This document shows positions 6,672-12,045 of a stretch of 64,000 bases of DNA, piece by piece. The translations under genes were made by a program, and so were the position numbers. This DNA comes from a virus. The notes under the pieces were generated by a model. It searched no databases. It was not told where the DNA came from and was given only the letters and a program-made list of their open reading frames with translations. The stretch is from the IMG/VR virus record IMGVR_UViG_3300037419_001822, positions 1 through 64,000 of that record; one strand, 5' to 3'. Each line of letters starts with the position of its first letter. Positions within the stretch are counted from its first letter, which is position 1.

Positions 6672-6827
6672 CCGGGTCTCGCGGATCATCCGCTCGGTGA
6701 AGCAGGGCCACTCCTGGCCATCCTGGTTGCAGACCTCGAAGTCGCGGACGTCCTGGGTGTCGTAGCACCAGGAGCTGACCACCTTCGCCCAGTGCCGCTC
6801 CCGCAGCCGCGACGCCAGGTCGCTCAC
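6660..6827 (-). CDS. Small hypothetical protein (55 aa, C..WPC motif); not in the ORF track
   Basis: GTG start overlaps the nucleotidyltransferase stop (GTGA). Reads MSDLASRLRERHWAKVVSSWCYDTQ...QEWPCFTERMIRETRSGQ*. Confidence 0.55.
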   Translation of the reverse strand: MSDLASRLRERHWAKVVSSWCYDTQDVRDFEVCNQDGQEWPCFTERMIRETRSGQ

Positions 6828-7651
6828 CGACGGTCCCAGTGGGCCAGGTACATCCGGTGCAGCAGCCGGTCGATCGCCTCGCGGTCGGGCTCCTCCTTGA
6901 TCCGCCAGGGATTCTGCTGGCGCAGGCTCTGCAGCTCACGCTCCAGCTCGGCGACCAGGGCCAGCACCTCGACCTCCCACACCTCGCCGCGCTTGATCTG
7001 CAGGATCTTCTCGCGCCAGTCGCGCTCCATCGGCAGGATCACCCGCTGCCAGCGCAGCAGCTCGATGCCCTGCACGGCCAGCCGCACCGCATGTGAGGCG
7101 AACTTCGTGTCGTACCCGTACTTCTCGACCAGCTCGGGCCGGTTGGTCCGGCCGACCCCGACCATGCCCCGGCGCTGCCCGTTGAGGTAGCCCAGGTAGC
7201 GGTCGGCGGCCTGCAGCGACACGAACGACGGCGCGTGGTCGAGTAGACGCCAGGCGAGCCCGTCGGCGTACACCCGCGCCTCGGGTGGGGTGAACAGCAG
7301 GGTGAGGATCGACGGGTTGCCGTCGGCGGCCAGGCGGCAGAACTTCCTGGCCCCGTACACGGTGACGTCCAGGTCGCCGGGGCCGGAGCGGTTGCCGGTG
7401 CCGCCCGGCCGGTCCCAGGCGGTGTGCCGCTCGTACTGCTCGAACCGGCGCAGCCCGGTGATGAACTGCGGCGGTTCGAGGCAGACGCCCATCTGGTCGG
7501 TGTCGTCGGTGCCGGGCAGGGCGATGCCGTGCACCCCGGAGCCGACCTCGGCCAGCAGGATCAGCCCGTCCTGGGCGATCTGCCGCGCCTCGTCGGAGGC
7601 GTGCGGGTGGCCGGGGTAGGCGGCGGGGAGCTGCGGCGCGGTCCTGTTCAC
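6824..7651 (-). CDS. DNA polymerase beta-superfamily nucleotidyltransferase (RlaP/PF10127-like)
   Basis: EVGSGVHG..DDTDQMGV (GS...DxD), GNPSILTLLF, YGYDTKFASHAVRL and IKRGE motifs. GTG start at 7651 overlaps the upstream stop. Confidence 0.8.
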   Translation of the reverse strand: MNRTAPQLPAAYPGHPHASDEARQIAQDGLILLAEVGSGVHGIALPGTDDTDQMGVCLEPPQFITGLRRFEQYERHTAWDRPGGTGNRSGPGDLDVTVYGARKFCRLAADGNPSILTLLFTPPEARVYADGLAWRLLDHAPSFVSLQAADRYLGYLNGQRRGMVGVGRTNRPELVEKYGYDTKFASHAVRLAVQGIELLRWQRVILPMERDWREKILQIKRGEVWEVEVLALVAELERELQSLRQQNPWRIKEEPDREAIDRLLHRMYLAHWDRR

Positions 7652-7821
7652 CGCCAGCGCCGCGTGGTCGTCCACATCGGGGTGGGCTGCCTCAGAACGG
7701 GCCGAGGCTTGCGGTCGACGCGGGCGCTGCGGATGATCAGCCACCACACGAGGGCCGAGTTGATCGCGACCAGCGCGAGGAAGCCGACAAGGACCCAGCC
7801 GTACCAAGGCGTGACAATCAC
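7648..7821 (-). CDS. Small membrane protein (57 aa); not in the ORF track
   Basis: MIVTPWYGWVLVGFLALVAINSALVWWLIIRSARVDRK... GTGA overlaps at both ends. Confidence 0.6.
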   Translation of the reverse strand: MIVTPWYGWVLVGFLALVAINSALVWWLIIRSARVDRKPRPVLRQPTPMWTTTRRWR

Positions 7822-8285
7822 CCTCTCCCTGCTCGTCGCACGCCTCGCACGATTCGCGAGACGGTCGATTGGTGGACGCCGAAGCGCTTTGCGATCGAAT
7901 GCTGGCTTTCGCCGCTGGCCTGGGCCTGGCGGATGGATGCGACCTGCTCATCGGTCAGGCGCGCGTTCCAGTGTTTGACCCCGCCGTGGAAGAGTCCGCG
8001 ATCCCGGCCTCGGGCGACCATATCGGCGGTGTTCTGCGCTTTCGTGCCCGCGTAGGTGTGCTCGGTCGCGCAGCACGGCGGGTTGTCGCAGGTGTGCAGG
8101 ATCGACATCCCGGCCGGGATGGGTCCGCGCGTCAGCTTGTAGGCCACGCGACTAGCGCGCTGGGGTGCCCTGCAGCCAGGCGCGTCGACCAGGCCATAGC
8201 CCTTCTCGTTCCGACGACCGGTCCACTCCAGGCACCCGGACGGAGTCCTCTCCGTCCGGGCCCAGAACGACTCCGGCCAGTCCAT
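7818..8285 (-). CDS. HNH endonuclease with C-terminal helix-turn-helix (homing endonuclease-like)
   Basis: MDWPESFWARTERTPSGCLEWTG..KGYG..ILHTCDNPPCC..EH..GTKAQNTADM, then LTDEQVASIR..SIAKRFGVHQSTVSRIV. The ATG overlaps the Ro60 stop. Confidence 0.8.
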   Translation of the reverse strand: MDWPESFWARTERTPSGCLEWTGRRNEKGYGLVDAPGCRAPQRASRVAYKLTRGPIPAGMSILHTCDNPPCCATEHTYAGTKAQNTADMVARGRDRGLFHGGVKHWNARLTDEQVASIRQAQASGESQHSIAKRFGVHQSTVSRIVRGVRRAGRG

Positions 8286-9976
8286 CAGATCCTCCCGGCG
8301 GAGAAGTCGGCGATCAGGTTGGGCACGGCCGAGTCGAACCCGGCGACGTCGAGCGACAGCGGGTCGGCCGGGTCGTTGACCGTCCAGCTCGTCGCGGTCA
8401 TCCCGGCCACGATCGAGCGCGCCGGGATGCCGGTCTGCTCGCGGTAGCGCCGGATTGCCTGGTGGACGTGCACGGGTCCAGCCCAGGTCTCGTTGTCGGT
8501 CCAGGTCGACACGACGTCGAACTCGCGGCCGGTCTCCAGGGCCCACGTCCACGGCAGGGCGCAGTCGGTGCCCCCGAACGGCAGCCGGGACACGTAGGAG
8601 ATGACGTCGTCCAGGCGGCGGCGCGGCGACAGGTCCAGCGGGGTGATCCCGTTGTACTCGTTCCGCCAGCCCCAGCCGCTGCGGCTGCCGTCGCTGGTGA
8701 AGCCGACGACCTCGACGTCGGGCTCGGTCGCCATGGTGACCATCGCCATCGCCGCCGACGCCTCCCGGGGGGTGATCGGCAGCCCGGCGATGTTCTGGTA
8801 GCCCATCGACCCGGACACGTCCAGGGCGATCAGGGTCCGCTTGCCGGACGGCTCGACCCCGCCGAACGCCTGGTAGAACCCGGCGTCGAGGGCGTCGGTG
8901 ACCTGCCGGACCGGCTGCCAGGTCGCCGAGCCGCGCAGCGACCGCCCGGAGGCGTAGGTGCGCAGCGCGACGAGCACGTTGACCGGGTGCACCTTGGCCT
9001 GGGCCATGCCGGTGGCGAGCTGCTCGCAGACGTTGGCCCGCACGGCGGCGCTGGACAGCAGCCCGACCTGGGTGAGCTTCGGCAGGTTCCGCATGAGCGC
9101 GGTCTGCGGCATGCGGTGCTCCAGCAGCGCCACCCACACGGCGGGGGAGTTGAGGTGCTCGGGGATGAGCGCCTCCCATGGCAGGCCGGGGTACTGCTGG
9201 ATGAGCCGGGCGGTCTCGTTCGCGCTGGGCGAGGCCTGGGCGCGCTGGAAGCCCTCGATGAGCCGCAGGCTGTCGAACGCGGTCGGCAGCTCGGCGGTCG
9301 CGGCCGGGAGCCGCCCGCAGGCGAACTCGAACGCCAGCCGCCGGGCGATGCCCTCCTCGTCTACGACGAAGGTGTCGCCGTCCTCGTGGACGTCGATGTC
9401 GAACGTCGGGTGGGACAGGCGCAGCAGGTCGCGGTGGGTCCAGCCGTTCCGCTGCCGGTACTTGATGAGCTGGTAAGCCAGACGGTCGACCGGCTTAGAC
9501 AGGTACCACCCGCCGATGGCACGGCGGAGGCCCCGGCCCCACCCCCGGAACTGCTCGACGTACTGCGCGAACAGGAACAGGTGGGTGCCGGTGCGGGCGA
9601 CCTGCGGCAGCACGTCGAGGGCGATCGAGCGGGTCTCGTCGTCGCCGAGCCCGGCGCAGGCGGCCAGCGCGAAGATCGCCGGGTTCTGCTTCGGCGCGCG
9701 CCCGGCCGTGGAGATCATCACGATCTCGGCGACGACCTCGGGGCCCCGGGTGCGGATCAGGTCCAGCAGCGCGGTGGCGTTCTCCTTGGTCAGCTCGCGC
9801 TCGCCGGTGTAGTAGGTGCCGCCGACGGTGCCCATGACCAGGAACCGGCGCAGCCGGGCCAGCTCGTCCACGGCGAAGACGTAGCCCCCGGCCGCGTTGC
9901 GCTGCTGGCGCGGGTCGGCCTGCTCGCTCTGCACGATCGCGCGGGCCTGGATCAGCGTCAGCGGGTCGCTGGACAT
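8285..9976 (-). CDS. rsr: Ro60/TROVE-domain RNA-binding protein with vWA domain (Rsr orthologue)
   Basis: RFLVMGT.GGTYY, KYRQRNGWTHRDLLRLSH, MPQTALMRNL, MIDAS DVSGSM, GGTDCALP, TDNETW, DVAGFDS. GGAGGA RBS precedes the ATG at 9976. Confidence 0.95.
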   Translation of the reverse strand: MSSDPLTLIQARAIVQSEQADPRQQRNAAGGYVFAVDELARLRRFLVMGTVGGTYYTGERELTKENATALLDLIRTRGPEVVAEIVMISTAGRAPKQNPAIFALAACAGLGDDETRSIALDVLPQVARTGTHLFLFAQYVEQFRGWGRGLRRAIGGWYLSKPVDRLAYQLIKYRQRNGWTHRDLLRLSHPTFDIDVHEDGDTFVVDEEGIARRLAFEFACGRLPAATAELPTAFDSLRLIEGFQRAQASPSANETARLIQQYPGLPWEALIPEHLNSPAVWVALLEHRMPQTALMRNLPKLTQVGLLSSAAVRANVCEQLATGMAQAKVHPVNVLVALRTYASGRSLRGSATWQPVRQVTDALDAGFYQAFGGVEPSGKRTLIALDVSGSMGYQNIAGLPITPREASAAMAMVTMATEPDVEVVGFTSDGSRSGWGWRNEYNGITPLDLSPRRRLDDVISYVSRLPFGGTDCALPWTWALETGREFDVVSTWTDNETWAGPVHVHQAIRRYREQTGIPARSIVAGMTATSWTVNDPADPLSLDVAGFDSAVPNLIADFSAGRI

Positions 9977-10007: not shown

Positions 10008-10106
10008 ACGGCTCGGCAGGACCACGGGCGTGGGGGTGGCGGCCGGTGGGTTTCTTTGACAGAGAAGAGAACCGGTCGCCTCCGGCCCGTGGTCCTGCCG
10101 AGCCGT
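10008..10106 (-). ncRNA. Y RNA-like unit 4 (short, no D/T arms; anticodon-like loop CU-GUC-AA)
   Basis: Perfect 22-bp terminal inverted repeat (10008-10029/10085-10106) and Ro-type bulged helix GGGC-C-G/CGCCC. Internal hairpin UUCU-CUGUCAA-AGAA. Lies directly upstream of rsr. Confidence 0.8.
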
Positions 10107-10114
10107 GGCTTTGG

Positions 10115-10202
10115 TCCTGGCCGGGGCGGGCGTGTGAGTGGCTGCCGGTGGGTTCTTTATTCGGAAGAGAACCGGCTGCCTCCGGCCCGCCCCGGGCCAG
10201 GA
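10115..10202 (-). ncRNA. Y RNA-like unit 3 (short, no D/T arms; UU-CCG-AA segment)
   Basis: Terminal stem UCCUGGCC(C)GGGGCGGGC/GCCCGCCCCGGCCAGGA. Shares GGGCCGGAG..CCGGUUCUC and CCGG..CACGCCC with the other units. Confidence 0.8.
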
Positions 10203-10207
10203 AGTGA

Positions 10208-10356
10208 GCGAAGCGGGCGTGGTGTGCAGACCGGGGTTAAGTGCTCTACCAACTGAGCTACACCACAACCGCACCTACGTCGGTCATGGCGACGGGACTC
10301 GAACCCGCGACCCCTCCATTAGCAGTGGTAACCGGAACCGCTCCGGCCCGCTTCGC
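10208..10356 (-). ncRNA. yrlA: YrlA-like Y RNA unit 2 with circularly permuted tRNA-like domain (loop CU-GCU-AA)
   Basis: Minus-strand order: GCGAAGCGGGCCGGAG; CCA-CUGCUAA-UGG; T arm GCGGG-UUCGAGU-CCCGU; closed acceptor-like stem; D arm UAGCUC-AGUUGGUA-GAGC; CACGCCCGCUUCGC. The T arm precedes the D arm, as in YrlA. Confidence 0.88.
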
Positions 10357-10380
10357 AGTCTGTGAAGTTGTGTGGGTGTA

Positions 10381-10536
10381 GCGGGGGAAAGGGAGCGGGC
10401 GTGGTGGTGTCCACCGTCCGTTTCACATGCTCTGCCGATTGAGCTACCGGGTTCCAGGAACCCGGACGGGACTCGAACCCGCAACACTGTGCTCCCAAAG
10501 AGAACCGGAGAACTCCGGCCCGCTCCCTTTCACCGC
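10381..10536 (-). ncRNA. yrlA: YrlA-like Y RNA unit 1 with circularly permuted tRNA-like domain (UU-UGG-GA segment)
   Basis: Terminal stem GAAAGGGAGCGGGC/GCCCGCUCCCUUUC, T arm GCGGG-UUCGAGU-CCCGU, acceptor-like hairpin CCGGGUUCC-U-GGAACCCGG, D arm UAGCUC-AAUCGGCA-GAGC. Confidence 0.88.
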
Positions 10537-10580: not shown

Positions 10581-10865
10581 TTACGGGGTCCGTCGGCGGA
10601 TGATCCGCCGGACCTCCTTCTCCGGGATCAGGTCGCGCAGCCGGTCCCGGTCGACGTCGGTCAGGTCGTTCTCGTCGTCCAGCATCCCGTTGAGCACGTA
10701 CTCGGCCAGGGCCACGTTCAGCACGTCGCTGAGCGTCTCGCGCTGGATCTCCGAGAGGTACTTCGCGGCCCACCACAGCTCGTTGGGCACGCGCACGGAA
10801 CGCGGGGGGGTGGTGGTGGTCTCGGCGGTGGTGGCCTCGACCGAATCGGTGGTGTCGATCGGCAT
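10581..10865 (-). CDS. Ribbon-helix-helix DNA-binding protein
   Basis: PRSVRVPNELWWAAK...ETLSDVLNVALAEYV fits the RHH beta-alpha-alpha pattern. GAGGA RBS. Confidence 0.7.
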   Translation of the reverse strand: MPIDTTDSVEATTAETTTTPPRSVRVPNELWWAAKYLSEIQRETLSDVLNVALAEYVLNGMLDDENDLTDVDRDRLRDLIPEKEVRRIIRRRTP

Positions 10866-12045
10866 GGTGTCCTCGCACGGGTCGCGGTCCTGCGGGGTCG
10901 ATGACCGACCCCTCGGGGCCAAGTGTACGCGGAGCGTCCATACAGACGTCAATCGTCACGTCCCCGTGGGTGTGTCGTTACCGGGGGGGTGCTGGGGGAA
11001 GCAGGCCCCCCCGGCTATGCAGGGGCGCCGATTGTGTCGTCGTCAGCAGGCCCACCCCCATCCCGGCCAAGGCCAGTAGTCCCGCCCCGATGGCGAGGAT
11101 CCAGGTCCACTCCCCCTGGGAGGGCCCGCCGCGCGTCGTCCGGTGCCGCCCGCTCACCCGCCCCCGACCTCCCCGGTGTCGGCGGCAGCAGCACAGGCCG
11201 GGCACACGTCGAGCGGCCCGGTGATGCGCCATCCGGCCTCGGCGGCCAGCGTGCGCAGCGCGGCGAACGCCTGCTCGCGGGTGTCGGCGCGGACGTCGGC
11301 GGAGAAGTCCGGGGTGTCGCATTCGTAGTCGCAGAACAGCGCGACGTGCCGGAACGGGAACGGGTCGTCGCCGTCGAACGGGGAGGGGTGCTGCGGGTCG
11401 TTCGGGTTGGTCACCGGCGGGTCACCCTCTCCAGGATGGCGACCACAAGTACCGGCCCAAAGAGAACGATCACCAAGATCATGAGGGTCCAGACGAAGGT
11501 CATCGGAACGGGCCGTCCTTCCAGTCGACCGGCTCCTGGTACTCGGTCAGCGCGGTCTGCGGGTGGTCGTGATCCCACGGGGTCATGAGCCAGGACCGGT
11601 TGTAGTCGCCGGTCGGCCAGCGGCCGTCGCCGGGCCGGAACTCGCGGACGATCACCCGCGCCGCGTTCATCGACTCCAGCTTGACGTGGGGCTTGATCCG
11701 GCCGACGACGCGGCCGTAGCGCATGCCCGCCTCGATCGAGAAGCCGAGCACGTCGCCGACCTCGACCGGGTCGCCGACGCGCTTCGGGTACTCCCGGCCA
11801 CACAGACAGTCGCTCATCGGGTCTCCTTCCCGGAGAGGGGGACGATGTGGACGTCGGGGCGGCGGGTCGACGCCCACAGCCACAACATGGCGTCGTTCAG
11901 GCAGTCGTCGCGGTCGCAGACATGCGTCGAGGCGAACGGCTCGCCCGATTCGTAACCGGCCCGCAGATCCTCGTGCGAGCTGACGCGGCGCGTCGGCTTG
12001 TGTCGGCACGTCGGATCCGGCAGGTCGTAGCGGCTCACGATTGCC

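What the first reader, a model, noticed from the sequence alone, without database searches (positions are those of the whole stretch)
10008..10536. Four-unit Y-RNA array in which each unit displays a different tRNA anticodon loop
Seen in sequence: four tandem minus-strand hairpins share a scaffold (5' GGGCCGGAG-N4/5-CCGGUU ... (C/A)CGG-N4-CAC..CACGCCC 3') and have unrelated, covarying terminal stems. Just 3' of CCGGUU, every unit has a 7-mer matching the anticodon-loop consensus YU-NNN-RA. Unit 1 has UU-UGG-GA (Pro; 10493-10499). Unit 2 has CU-GCU-AA (Ser; 10319-10325) closed by CCA/UGG and followed by a variable-loop-like AGGGGUC and a T arm. Unit 3 has UU-CCG-AA (Arg; 10160-10166). Unit 4 has CU-GUC-AA (Asp; 10056-10062) closed by UUCU/AGAA. 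Established: Ro60 binds the bulged-C helix of Y RNAs; YrlA RNAs mimic tRNA via permuted D/T/acceptor arms; anticodon nucleases (PrrC, RloC, VapC/MazF-type toxins) cut specific anticodon loops. Inference: this is a diversified anticodon-loop panel on a Ro60 scaffold, serving as decoys or sensors for anticodon nucleases or tRNA-modifying enzymes, or as guides for tRNA repair or decay. I do not recall variable anticodon display being described for Y RNAs. Caveat: the stems closing the loops of units 1 and 3 are weak.
Basis: partly seen in the sequence, partly recalled or inferred. Interest (0 to 1): 0.93.

Follow-up and report, generated by a model that had tools for sequence, protein, structure and literature searches.

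The report
Phage Y-RNA array with anticodon-like hairpins
Four small RNA genes in front of a phage Ro60 gene are ordinary Y RNAs, but two of them carry a hairpin built like a tRNA anticodon loop that recurs in about a quarter of related Y RNAs, with a freely changing middle triplet and no known function.

Summary
The array is real. Four minus-strand units (10008-10530) share a Ro60-type handle and lie directly upstream of a phage Ro60 (TROVE+vWA)-HNH-RlaP operon. Units 1 and 2 are YrlA-type permuted tRNA mimics. Units 3 and 4 are minimal hairpins.

"Every unit shows an anticodon loop" holds for only two units. Unit 2 (CU-GCU-AA) and unit 4 (CU-GUC-AA) have a stem-closed 7-nt loop. The 7-mers of units 1 and 3 are partly paired and lack a closing stem, and such a string turns up by chance in about 15% of units.

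Among about 290 related units, a hairpin right after CGGUUAYC has a YU-NNN-RA loop in 28% of the 156 with a 7-nt loop, against 0.8% of background hairpins. C32 and U33 are the commonest bases, A37/A38 are favoured, and the triplet varies widely. The stem covaries. The loop sits 14-15 nt from the T loop, as in tRNA.

This hairpin is the published "V" arm, also present in M. smegmatis YrlA. I found no paper describing its anticodon-like signature. Earlier follow-ups in this scan reported the same on other DNA.

A decoy or sensor role is untested, and arrays show no diversification beyond chance. It is a new member of a known family.

The parts
10388..10530 (-). Unit 1: YrlA-type Y RNA. It has the handle, a degenerate V hairpin (GUUCUC-UUU-GGGAGC), a T arm, a 7-bp closed acceptor-like stem and a D arm.
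   Evidence: RF02553 at 41.5 bits over 10423-10490; sequence read; fold
10208..10356 (-). Unit 2: YrlA-type Y RNA with an anticodon-arm-like V hairpin, T arm, 11-bp acceptor-like stem and D arm.
   Evidence: RF02553 at 34.5 bits and RF00005 tRNA at 27.1 bits, with CUGCUAA aligned as the anticodon loop; aligned with 22 homologues
10316..10328 (-). Unit 2 hairpin CCA-CUGCUAA-UGG (loop 10319-10325).
   Evidence: Stem covaries in homologues: CCA/UGG, CCU/AGG, UCA/UGA, CGC/GCG, CUC/GAG. It lies 15 nt from the T-loop UU.
10117..10200 (-). Unit 3: minimal hairpin Y RNA. The apical loop is CCGAAUA closed by UCUU/AAGA, which is not anticodon-like (C at position 33).
   Evidence: RNAfold z = -4.6; base-pair probabilities
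10008..10106 (-). Unit 4: minimal hairpin Y RNA with a 22-bp terminal stem. The apical hairpin is UUCU-CUGUCAA-AGAA (loop 10056-10062).
   Evidence: RNAfold z = -10.5; P(closing pair) 0.66; RF01656 at 37.7 bits; CUGUCA(A/C) is the commonest loop in the family
8288..9976 (-). Ro60/Rsr orthologue (563 aa). Its start codon lies 32 nt after unit 4.
   Evidence: Pfam TROVE 2e-43 and vWA_Ro60 6e-54; thousands of homologues
7821..8285 (-). HNH_3 + HTH endonuclease-like ORF. Its ATG overlaps the Ro60 stop codon.
6824..7951 (-). RlaP-family nucleotidyltransferase (an RNA-repair-associated Pol-beta NTase).
   Evidence: Pfam PF10127, 1e-24

Best explanation
Shown: the region is a tandem array of four Y RNA genes in the leader of a phage Ro60-HNH-RlaP operon. 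All four share the Ro60-type handle, which is the 5' strand GGGCCGGAG-N4/5-CCGGUU paired with the 3' strand CCGG-N4-CAC..CACGCCC. Units 1 and 2 add a circularly permuted tRNA-like module (T arm, closed acceptor-like stem, D arm), which makes them YrlA-type. Units 3 and 4 are minimal hairpins. The hairpin directly after CGGUU(A/C)YC is the 'V' stem-loop of YrlA. Comparative data show it corresponds to a tRNA anticodon arm. It has a 7-nt loop in which C32 and U33 are the commonest bases and A37 with A38 (or C38) are favoured. Its short stem covaries, it keeps the tRNA register relative to the T arm, and its middle triplet changes freely. In this window only units 2 (GCU) and 4 (GUC) have the intact form; units 1 and 3 have decayed versions. 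Inferred: the RNAs are cut from one precursor and bound by the phage Ro60, as shown for M. smegmatis YrlA and YrlB. The anticodon-like loop is kept for its U-turn geometry, not for its triplet. It extends the tRNA mimicry to the anticodon end, so a partner that reads tRNA shape can be engaged on the Ro60 particle. That partner is unknown; it could be a repair, modification or decay enzyme. The triplet itself is most likely neutral.
For: Identity and context. Only these four units exist in the 113-kb genome. Arrays of 2-6 such units are common upstream of Ro60 genes in actinobacteria and their phages, including a 5-unit array in GenBank MW584167. Handle, V hairpin, T arm and acceptor-like stem are supported by covariation: 95.8% of cells paired against 83.1% in shuffles, and 14 pairs with double-sided changes. 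Loop signature: 7-nt loops are over-represented, 102 observed against 58.7+-5.9. YU-NNN-RA occurs in 44/156 against 0.77% of 63,381 background hairpins. The loop end lies 14-15 nt from the T loop in 36/39 units. The Rfam tRNA model reaches 27-28 bits on handle + hairpin + T arm in three independent units. ARAGORN and a GenBank record call such units tRNAs. Free triplet: 30-36 distinct triplets. Near relatives differ at 0.54-0.57 per site in positions 34-36, against 0.03 at 32-33 and 0.07 in the T arm, which is as fast as or faster than any other segment. M. smegmatis YrlA, shown to bind Rsr, carries CCA-CUUCUAA-UGG (probe sequence in PMC4201824).
Against: No expression, processing or Ro60-binding data exist for this phage. 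The 3-bp hairpin of unit 2 is not the thermodynamic optimum. About half of all units have no such 7-nt-loop hairpin (134 of 290), and most lack the anticodon-like form, so it is not needed for Ro60 binding. A triplet as variable as this fits neutrality but also diversifying selection; the 8 closest pairs hint at faster-than-anything turnover. G37 follows G36 in 7/9 loops against 1/64 otherwise, which a purely shape-based role does not predict. The units sampled are phylogenetically related, so the P values are inflated.
Confidence: 0.6

Rival explanations
1. The loops form a deliberately diversified panel of anticodon mimics on a Ro60 scaffold. They act as decoys or sensors for anticodon nucleases or tRNA-modifying enzymes, or as guides for tRNA repair or decay, and the triplet carries the specificity.
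For: The loop has tRNA-like hallmarks and a fast-changing triplet. GUN triplets are over-represented, about 15/73 against 1/16 expected. G36 and G37 are coupled as in m1G37 tRNAs. The operon encodes RlaP, whose family is reported to restore nucleotides lost from damaged tRNAs before ligation (bioRxiv 10.64898/2025.12.29.696909; PMC7824862). In Salmonella the rsr-yrlBA-rtcBA operon responds to damaged tRNAs (PMC7790460). The phage's own tRNA-Ser has the same GCU anticodon as unit 2.
Against: Only 2 of the 4 units here carry the loop, and arrays usually hold 0-2. Different triplets within an array are what chance predicts. Stems are mostly 3 bp rather than 5 bp. The G36-G37 cases do not match cognate tRNAs consistently: CUG, GCG and ACG carry G37. 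The GCU match has roughly a 19% chance expectation. RlaP lies next to Ro60 in only 5 of about 280 loci. The phage record has no RtcB or RNA ligase. No triplet matched a genuine tRNA gene in the same locus: the three apparent matches were ARAGORN calling the Y RNA unit itself a tRNA.
Confidence: 0.15
2. The hairpin is only an evolutionary remnant of the tRNA from which YrlA arose (the dimeric-tRNA origin model). CU and AA persist because they make a stable U-turn loop.
For: The spacing and near-threshold tRNA-model hits fit descent from a tRNA. Wang et al. (bioRxiv 10.1101/312249) cite this origin model. Many units, and Salmonella YrlA, do without the hairpin (10.1101/312249). Units 1 and 3 here look like decayed copies.
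Against: The same loop signature also occurs in minimal units with no tRNA-like domain to cap: 20 of the 59 CU-loop units. C32/U33 stay nearly invariant (0.03 differences per site) while adjacent bases turn over. This is stronger constraint than expected for a mere cap, which a tetraloop could provide.
Confidence: 0.22
3. The units are tRNA genes or tRNA pseudogenes, as some annotation pipelines label them.
For: ARAGORN calls homologous units tRNA-Leu, tRNA-Thr and tRNA-Ser. GenBank MW584167 annotates one as tRNA-Thr(tgt). RF00005 scores 27.1 bits on unit 2.
Against: ARAGORN finds no tRNA in the window. The RF00005 score is below its cut-off. The supposed D arm is the covarying Ro60 handle strand, which pairs with a 3' strand more than 100 nt away. 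A genuine D arm follows the T arm in permuted order.
Confidence: 0.02

Closest known systems
YrlA (Rfam RF02553): S. Typhimurium, M. smegmatis and mycobacteriophage Y RNAs (Chen et al. 2014, PMC4201824; Wang et al. 2018, bioRxiv 10.1101/312249)
   Same: It lies upstream of Ro60 on the same strand and has a GNCG(A/G)AG-type 5' motif. It has permuted T arm, closed acceptor stem and D arm, and a 'V' stem-loop after the conserved YUAY. M. smegmatis YrlA has the same CCA-CU-NNN-AA-UGG hairpin.
   Different: The scores are below Rfam's cut-off (41.5 and 34.5 against 69). There are four units rather than two. The published description calls the hairpin a less-conserved variable arm and states that Salmonella YrlA lacks an anticodon loop. 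The anticodon-loop signature and its tRNA register were not described in the papers I could search.
Minimal hairpin Y RNAs (S. Typhimurium YrlB, D. radiodurans Yrn2, M. smegmatis YrlB; Chen et al. 2014)
   Same: Units 3 and 4 are long hairpins with a small pyrimidine-rich apical loop, encoded between YrlA and rsr.
   Different: M. smegmatis YrlB is reported to have a possible T arm, which units 3 and 4 lack. Unit 4's loop follows the CU-NNN-AA consensus.
Metazoan Y RNAs and nematode sbRNAs (Rfam RF01656)
   Same: The handle aligns to the sbRNA consensus CGGUCCGGAG...GGGUUAUC...CACC..GACCG at 37.7 bits for unit 4.
   Different: The origin is bacterial or phage, the apical modules are tRNA-derived, and the score is just under the cut-off.
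tRNA anticodon arm
   Same: Both have a 7-nt loop with C32, U33, A/G37 and A/C38. A34 is rare. The loop lies 14-15 nt from T54.
   Different: The stem is usually 3-4 bp. The element is embedded in a Ro60 handle, has no acceptor end of its own, and its triplet is unrelated to neighbouring tRNA genes.

Membership tests
Y RNA (Ro60-binding RNA) | Encoded next to a Ro60/TROVE gene on the same strand | tested here: met
   The array ends 32 nt before the Ro60 ATG.
Y RNA (Ro60-binding RNA) | A helix formed by the 5' and 3' ends that carries the conserved GGUCCGA / GNCGAAN0-1G-like 5' strand | tested here: met
   GGGCCGGAG is present in all four units (G for A at one motif position; both forms occur in homologues). 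The helix covaries in 23 homologues. Unit 4 hits RF01656 at 37.7 bits against a cut-off of 38.
Y RNA (Ro60-binding RNA) | Physically bound and stabilised by Ro60 | not testable with these tools
   This needs RIP or EMSA. It has been shown for the homologous M. smegmatis YrlA (PMC4201824).
YrlA (RF02553) | T arm, closed acceptor-like stem and D arm in permuted order | tested here: met
   Met for units 1 and 2 (alignments). Not present in units 3 and 4.
YrlA (RF02553) | Reaches Rfam's gathering score (69 bits) | tested here: not met
   Scores are 41.5 and 34.5 bits. All 12 actinobacterial and phage loci tested also score only 37-56 bits, so the threshold misses this whole clade.
tRNA | A cloverleaf whose acceptor stem joins the 5' and 3' ends, detected by tRNA finders | tested here: not met
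   ARAGORN finds none in the window. RF00005 scores 27.1 bits against a cut-off of 29.
tRNA anticodon arm (as a module) | A stem-closed 7-nt loop with Y32, U33, R37 and the tRNA distance to the T loop | tested here: met
   Met for unit 2, and for unit 4 apart from the T-loop distance, since unit 4 has no T arm. Not met for units 1 and 3.
Anticodon-nuclease decoy or sensor | Cleaved or bound by an anticodon-loop-directed enzyme in a triplet-dependent way | not testable with these tools
   There is no biochemical data. The genomic hints are weak.

The most novel reading that the evidence does not exclude
The anticodon-arm-like hairpin of YrlA-type and minimal Y RNAs is a working anticodon-loop mimic. 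Ro60 particles would present a fast-evolving triplet in a true U-turn loop as bait, decoy or sensor for enzymes that attack, modify or repair tRNA anticodon loops. That would place phage and bacterial Ro60/Y RNA systems in the conflict over tRNAs.
Probability: 0.15. Interest if true: 0.85.

Novelty: new member of a known kind. Interest (0 to 1): 0.5.

Why it matters
What the tRNA-like module of bacterial Y RNAs binds has been an open question since 2014. If the hairpin next to the Ro60 handle is a conserved anticodon-arm look-alike, YrlA mimics a whole tRNA, not just its elbow. That narrows the search for partners to proteins that read anticodon loops. It also gives direct support to the dimeric-tRNA origin model.

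There are two practical consequences. Rfam's YrlA threshold misses the whole actinobacterial and phage clade. tRNA finders and GenBank records label some of these units as tRNAs with spurious anticodons.

M. smegmatis YrlA carries the same hairpin, so a tractable laboratory test exists.

Tried and rejected
- Rfam at gathering thresholds found nothing in the window.
The contigs of the closest Ro60 relatives (P0002-P0004, 83-87% identity) could therefore not be read, and orthologues of units 1 and 3 were not examined.
- The single metagenome scan returned only distant relatives.
- A pattern scan for the CGGUUCUC handle variant found by my reading mostly coding-sequence chance matches. L039 has a unit-4-like UUCU-CUGCUUA-AGAA hairpin.
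- I tested whether triplets match tRNA genes in the same locus. The only matches were ARAGORN calling the Y RNA itself a tRNA.
- I tested whether RlaP is a general neighbour of Ro60. It is not: 5 loci.
- I searched the phage for RtcB and RNA ligase and found none.
- Avoidance of A34 (4/73) is not clearly different from the A frequency at position 35, so I did not use it.
- Promoter and terminator scans gave nothing useful.
- Three literature searches found no description of an anticodon-like loop in YrlA. The Annual Review on bacterial Ro60 (PMC10870794) is not held.

Full report
**What is there**

On the minus strand, 10530-10008 holds four tandem units. Each has the 5' strand GGGCCGGAG-N4/5-CCGGUU and the 3' strand (C/A)CGG-N4-CAC..CACGCCC. 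Each is closed by its own complementary terminal stem of 10-22 bp.

The array ends 32 nt before the ATG of a 563-aa Ro60 orthologue, which has TROVE and vWA_Ro60 domains. Three ORFs follow Ro60:
- an HNH_3/HTH endonuclease-like ORF whose ATG overlaps the Ro60 stop codon;
- a 57-aa ORF that looks hydrophobic on reading;
- an RlaP-family nucleotidyltransferase.

The window is part of a 113-kb IMG/VR virus record with 70% G+C. The handle occurs as a non-coding unit only at these four places in that genome.

**Identity of the units**

Rfam finds nothing at its gathering thresholds. In E-value mode the results are as follows:
- Units 1 and 2 match the tRNA-like core of YrlA (T arm, closed acceptor-like stem, D arm) at 41.5 and 34.5 bits.
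- Unit 4 matches the nematode Y-RNA homologue family RF01656 at 37.7 bits, against a cut-off of 38.
- The 5' half of unit 2 matches the tRNA model at 27.1 bits, against a cut-off of 29, with CUGCUAA aligned as the anticodon loop.

ARAGORN finds no tRNA in the window. Units 3 and 4 fold into long hairpins with z = -4.6 and -10.5. The array is therefore two YrlA-type and two minimal Y RNAs.

This layout parallels M. smegmatis. There, YrlA and YrlB lie upstream of rsr, are processed from one precursor and are bound by Rsr (PMC4201824).

**Checking the four claimed loops**

- Unit 4: CUGUCAA is the predicted 7-nt apical loop, closed by UUCU/AGAA. P(closing pair) is 0.66.
- Unit 2: CCA-CUGCUAA-UGG is not the energy optimum, but homologues support it (see below).
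- Unit 1: the 7-mer lies inside a 6-bp hairpin, GUUCUC-UUU-GGGAGC. P(unpaired) is 0.1-0.3 for GGGA, and there is no closing pair.
Position 33 is C and position 37 is U.

A YU-NNN-RA string within 10 nt of GGUU, with no structure required, occurs in 15% of shuffled units. Units 1, 3 and 4 also share CUCUU by paralogy. Chance therefore accounts for the strings in units 1 and 3.

**Homologues**

I collected Ro60 loci in three ways:
- 80 IMG/VR phage loci and 80 actinobacterial genome loci, using a protein alignment as the query;
- 80 further phage loci from a handle pattern scan;
- a few metagenome contigs.

The handle GGCCG(G/A)AG-N3-9-CGGUU is nearly invariant in these loci. Arrays are common: by a strict pattern that undercounts, 44 arrays have two units, 21 have three, 10 have four, 3 have five and 1 has six. 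GenBank MW584167, an M. abscessus prophage, has a five-unit array with a variant handle. A four-unit array is therefore ordinary.

**The hairpin after CGGUUAYC**

There are about 290 non-redundant units.
- 156 have a hairpin of at least 3 bp with a 7-nt loop that starts 3-10 nt after GGUU.
- Seven-nucleotide loops are over-represented in the first set of 157 units: 102 observed against 58.7+-5.9 in shuffles.
- Loop composition among the 156 is C32 in 85, U33 in 84, A37 in 74 (G in 42) and A38 in 83 (C in 34).
- YU-NNN-RA holds for 44 of the 156 (28%).
- The comparison values are 0.77% of 63,381 background 7-nt-loop hairpins in the same loci, and 0.74 of 157 units in shuffles, where 35 were observed.

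The hairpin is about equally frequent in tRNA-like units (39 of 110) and minimal units (20 of 49).

In tRNA-like units the loop end lies 14-15 nt from the T-loop UU in 36 of 39 cases. That is the tRNA distance: a 5-nt stem strand, a 4-5-nt variable loop and a 5-nt T stem.

The tRNA model reaches 27-28 bits on handle + hairpin + T arm in three independent units. ARAGORN calls three such units tRNAs. GenBank annotates one as tRNA-Thr(tgt).

**Covariation**

I aligned 23 units of the unit-2 type with MAFFT. RNAalifold predicts the handle, the 3-bp hairpin with its 7-nt loop, the T arm and the acceptor-like stem.

Pair counting gives 95.8% of cells paired, against 83.1% in shuffles and 34-47% in slid controls. 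Fourteen pairs show double-sided changes. Two of the three hairpin pairs show compensatory changes, such as A-U to U-A or G-C. The closest IMG/VR relative of this phage has CUC-CUGCUAA-GAG: the same loop on a different stem.

**The triplet**

Between 30 and 36 distinct triplets occur, and GUC is the commonest.

| Segment | Differences per site between near relatives |
|---|---|
| Positions 34-36 (triplet) | 0.54-0.57 |
| Positions 32-33 | 0-0.03 |
| T arm | 0.05-0.07 |
| Handle spacer | 0.16-0.33 |
| Acceptor-like stem | 0.31-0.57 |

The triplet is therefore at least as fast as the fastest other segment. That fits neutrality and does not exclude diversifying selection.

All ten loci with two CU loops have different triplets. 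With this many triplets in circulation, that is the chance expectation.

G37 follows G36 in 7 of 9 loops, against 1 of 64 otherwise (Fisher 1.7e-7). However, n is small, some of those loops are dubious, and the triplets involved do not consistently belong to m1G37 tRNAs. I leave this unexplained.

**Relation to print**

Chen et al. [quoted passage not shown] They call it V and liken it to a variable arm, with a conserved YUAY at its start.

Their M. smegmatis 5' probe, reverse-complemented, reads UUACCACUUCUAAUGGAAUGGUC. The validated YrlA therefore carries the same CCA-CU-NNN-AA-UGG hairpin.

Wang et al. 2018 state that Salmonella YrlA lacks the anticodon loop. They cite a model in which YrlA arose from a dimeric tRNA transcript. 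The register and the near-threshold tRNA hits found here fit that model.

I found no paper that notes the anticodon-loop signature. Earlier follow-ups in this scan reached the same reading on other DNA (e1-5706600). My counts here were made independently of them.

**Function**

Nothing here tests function. These points favour a link to anticodon-loop biology:
- RlaP sits in the operon. Its family adds 1-2 nucleotides to damaged RNA 3' ends and is reported to be needed to restore over-damaged tRNA (PMC7824862).
- The Salmonella rsr-yrlBA-rtcBA operon responds to damaged tRNAs (PMC7790460, listed).

These points count against a specific link:
- RlaP adjoins Ro60 in only 5 of about 280 loci.
- The phage record has no RtcB or RNA ligase.
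- The triplets do not track genuine tRNA genes in the same locus: the three apparent matches were ARAGORN calling the Y RNA unit itself a tRNA.
- The phage's tRNA-Ser(GCU) at 77201-77286 shares unit 2's triplet, but my rough estimate of the chance of that match is about 19%.

I commit to shape-based mimicry with a neutral triplet as the most likely reading (about 0.6).

**Verdict**

The locus is a new member of the known YrlA/Y RNA family. The claim that each unit displays a different anticodon loop is overstated: it holds for two of four units. The conserved anticodon-arm-like hairpin is a real property of the family, and I did not find it reported in the papers I could search. It is worth a bench test in M. 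smegmatis.

Noticed in passing
G000:C1:77128-77286 (same phage genome, outside the window): The phage encodes two adjacent tRNAs, tRNA-Gln(CUG) and tRNA-Ser(GCU). GCU is also the triplet in unit 2's loop. The loops differ at position 38, and I estimate the chance of such a match at about 19%.
   Followed up: partly
L288:3582-3660 (GenBank MW584167, Mycobacterium phage prophiGD43A-5): The feature annotated tRNA-Thr(tgt) is the 5' half of a YrlA unit (variant handle GAGCAGGAC, hairpin CCA-CUUGUAA-UGG). It is the first of five Y-RNA units upstream of the Ro-like gene. ARAGORN makes the same kind of call in L005, L050 and L126.
   Followed up: partly
L009, L043, L053, L099, L110, L119, L126, L138, L139, L154, L166, L167: Every actinobacterial or phage YrlA tested scores 37-56 bits against RF02553, whose cut-off is 69. 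Rfam-based annotation therefore misses this whole clade. Several units also hit the nematode sbRNA family just under its cut-off.
   Followed up: partly
Units across L003-L248 (loop positions 36-37): G at loop position 37 occurs almost only when position 36 is G: 7 of 9 loops against 1 of 64. This recalls the G36-G37 rule of m1G37 tRNAs, but the triplets involved are not consistently the cognate ones. It remains unexplained.
   Followed up: partly
window 10501-10508, 10331-10338 and homologous units: The motif CGGUUAYC after the handle is nearly invariant in homologues. It aligns with GGGUUAUC of the nematode sbRNA consensus and, from memory, resembles GUUAUC in human Y1. Three of the four window units have the rare variant CGGUUCUC.
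   Followed up: no
window 7821-8285 (-): An HNH_3 + HTH homing-endonuclease-like ORF sits between Ro60 and RlaP, and its ATG overlaps the Ro60 stop codon (ATGA).
   Followed up: partly
L044:48-800, L146:372-1620, L154:1661-1732: Genuine tRNA genes, or arrays of 6-8 of them, lie directly upstream of the Y-RNA arrays in several phage and bacterial loci. In L126 the tRNA model also bridges the D arm of one unit and the hairpin plus T arm of the next.
   Followed up: no
window 10581-10952 (-): A 123-aa ORF sits just upstream of the array and has no Pfam match. From its sequence it may be a ribbon-helix-helix-like regulator, but I did not test this.
   Followed up: no
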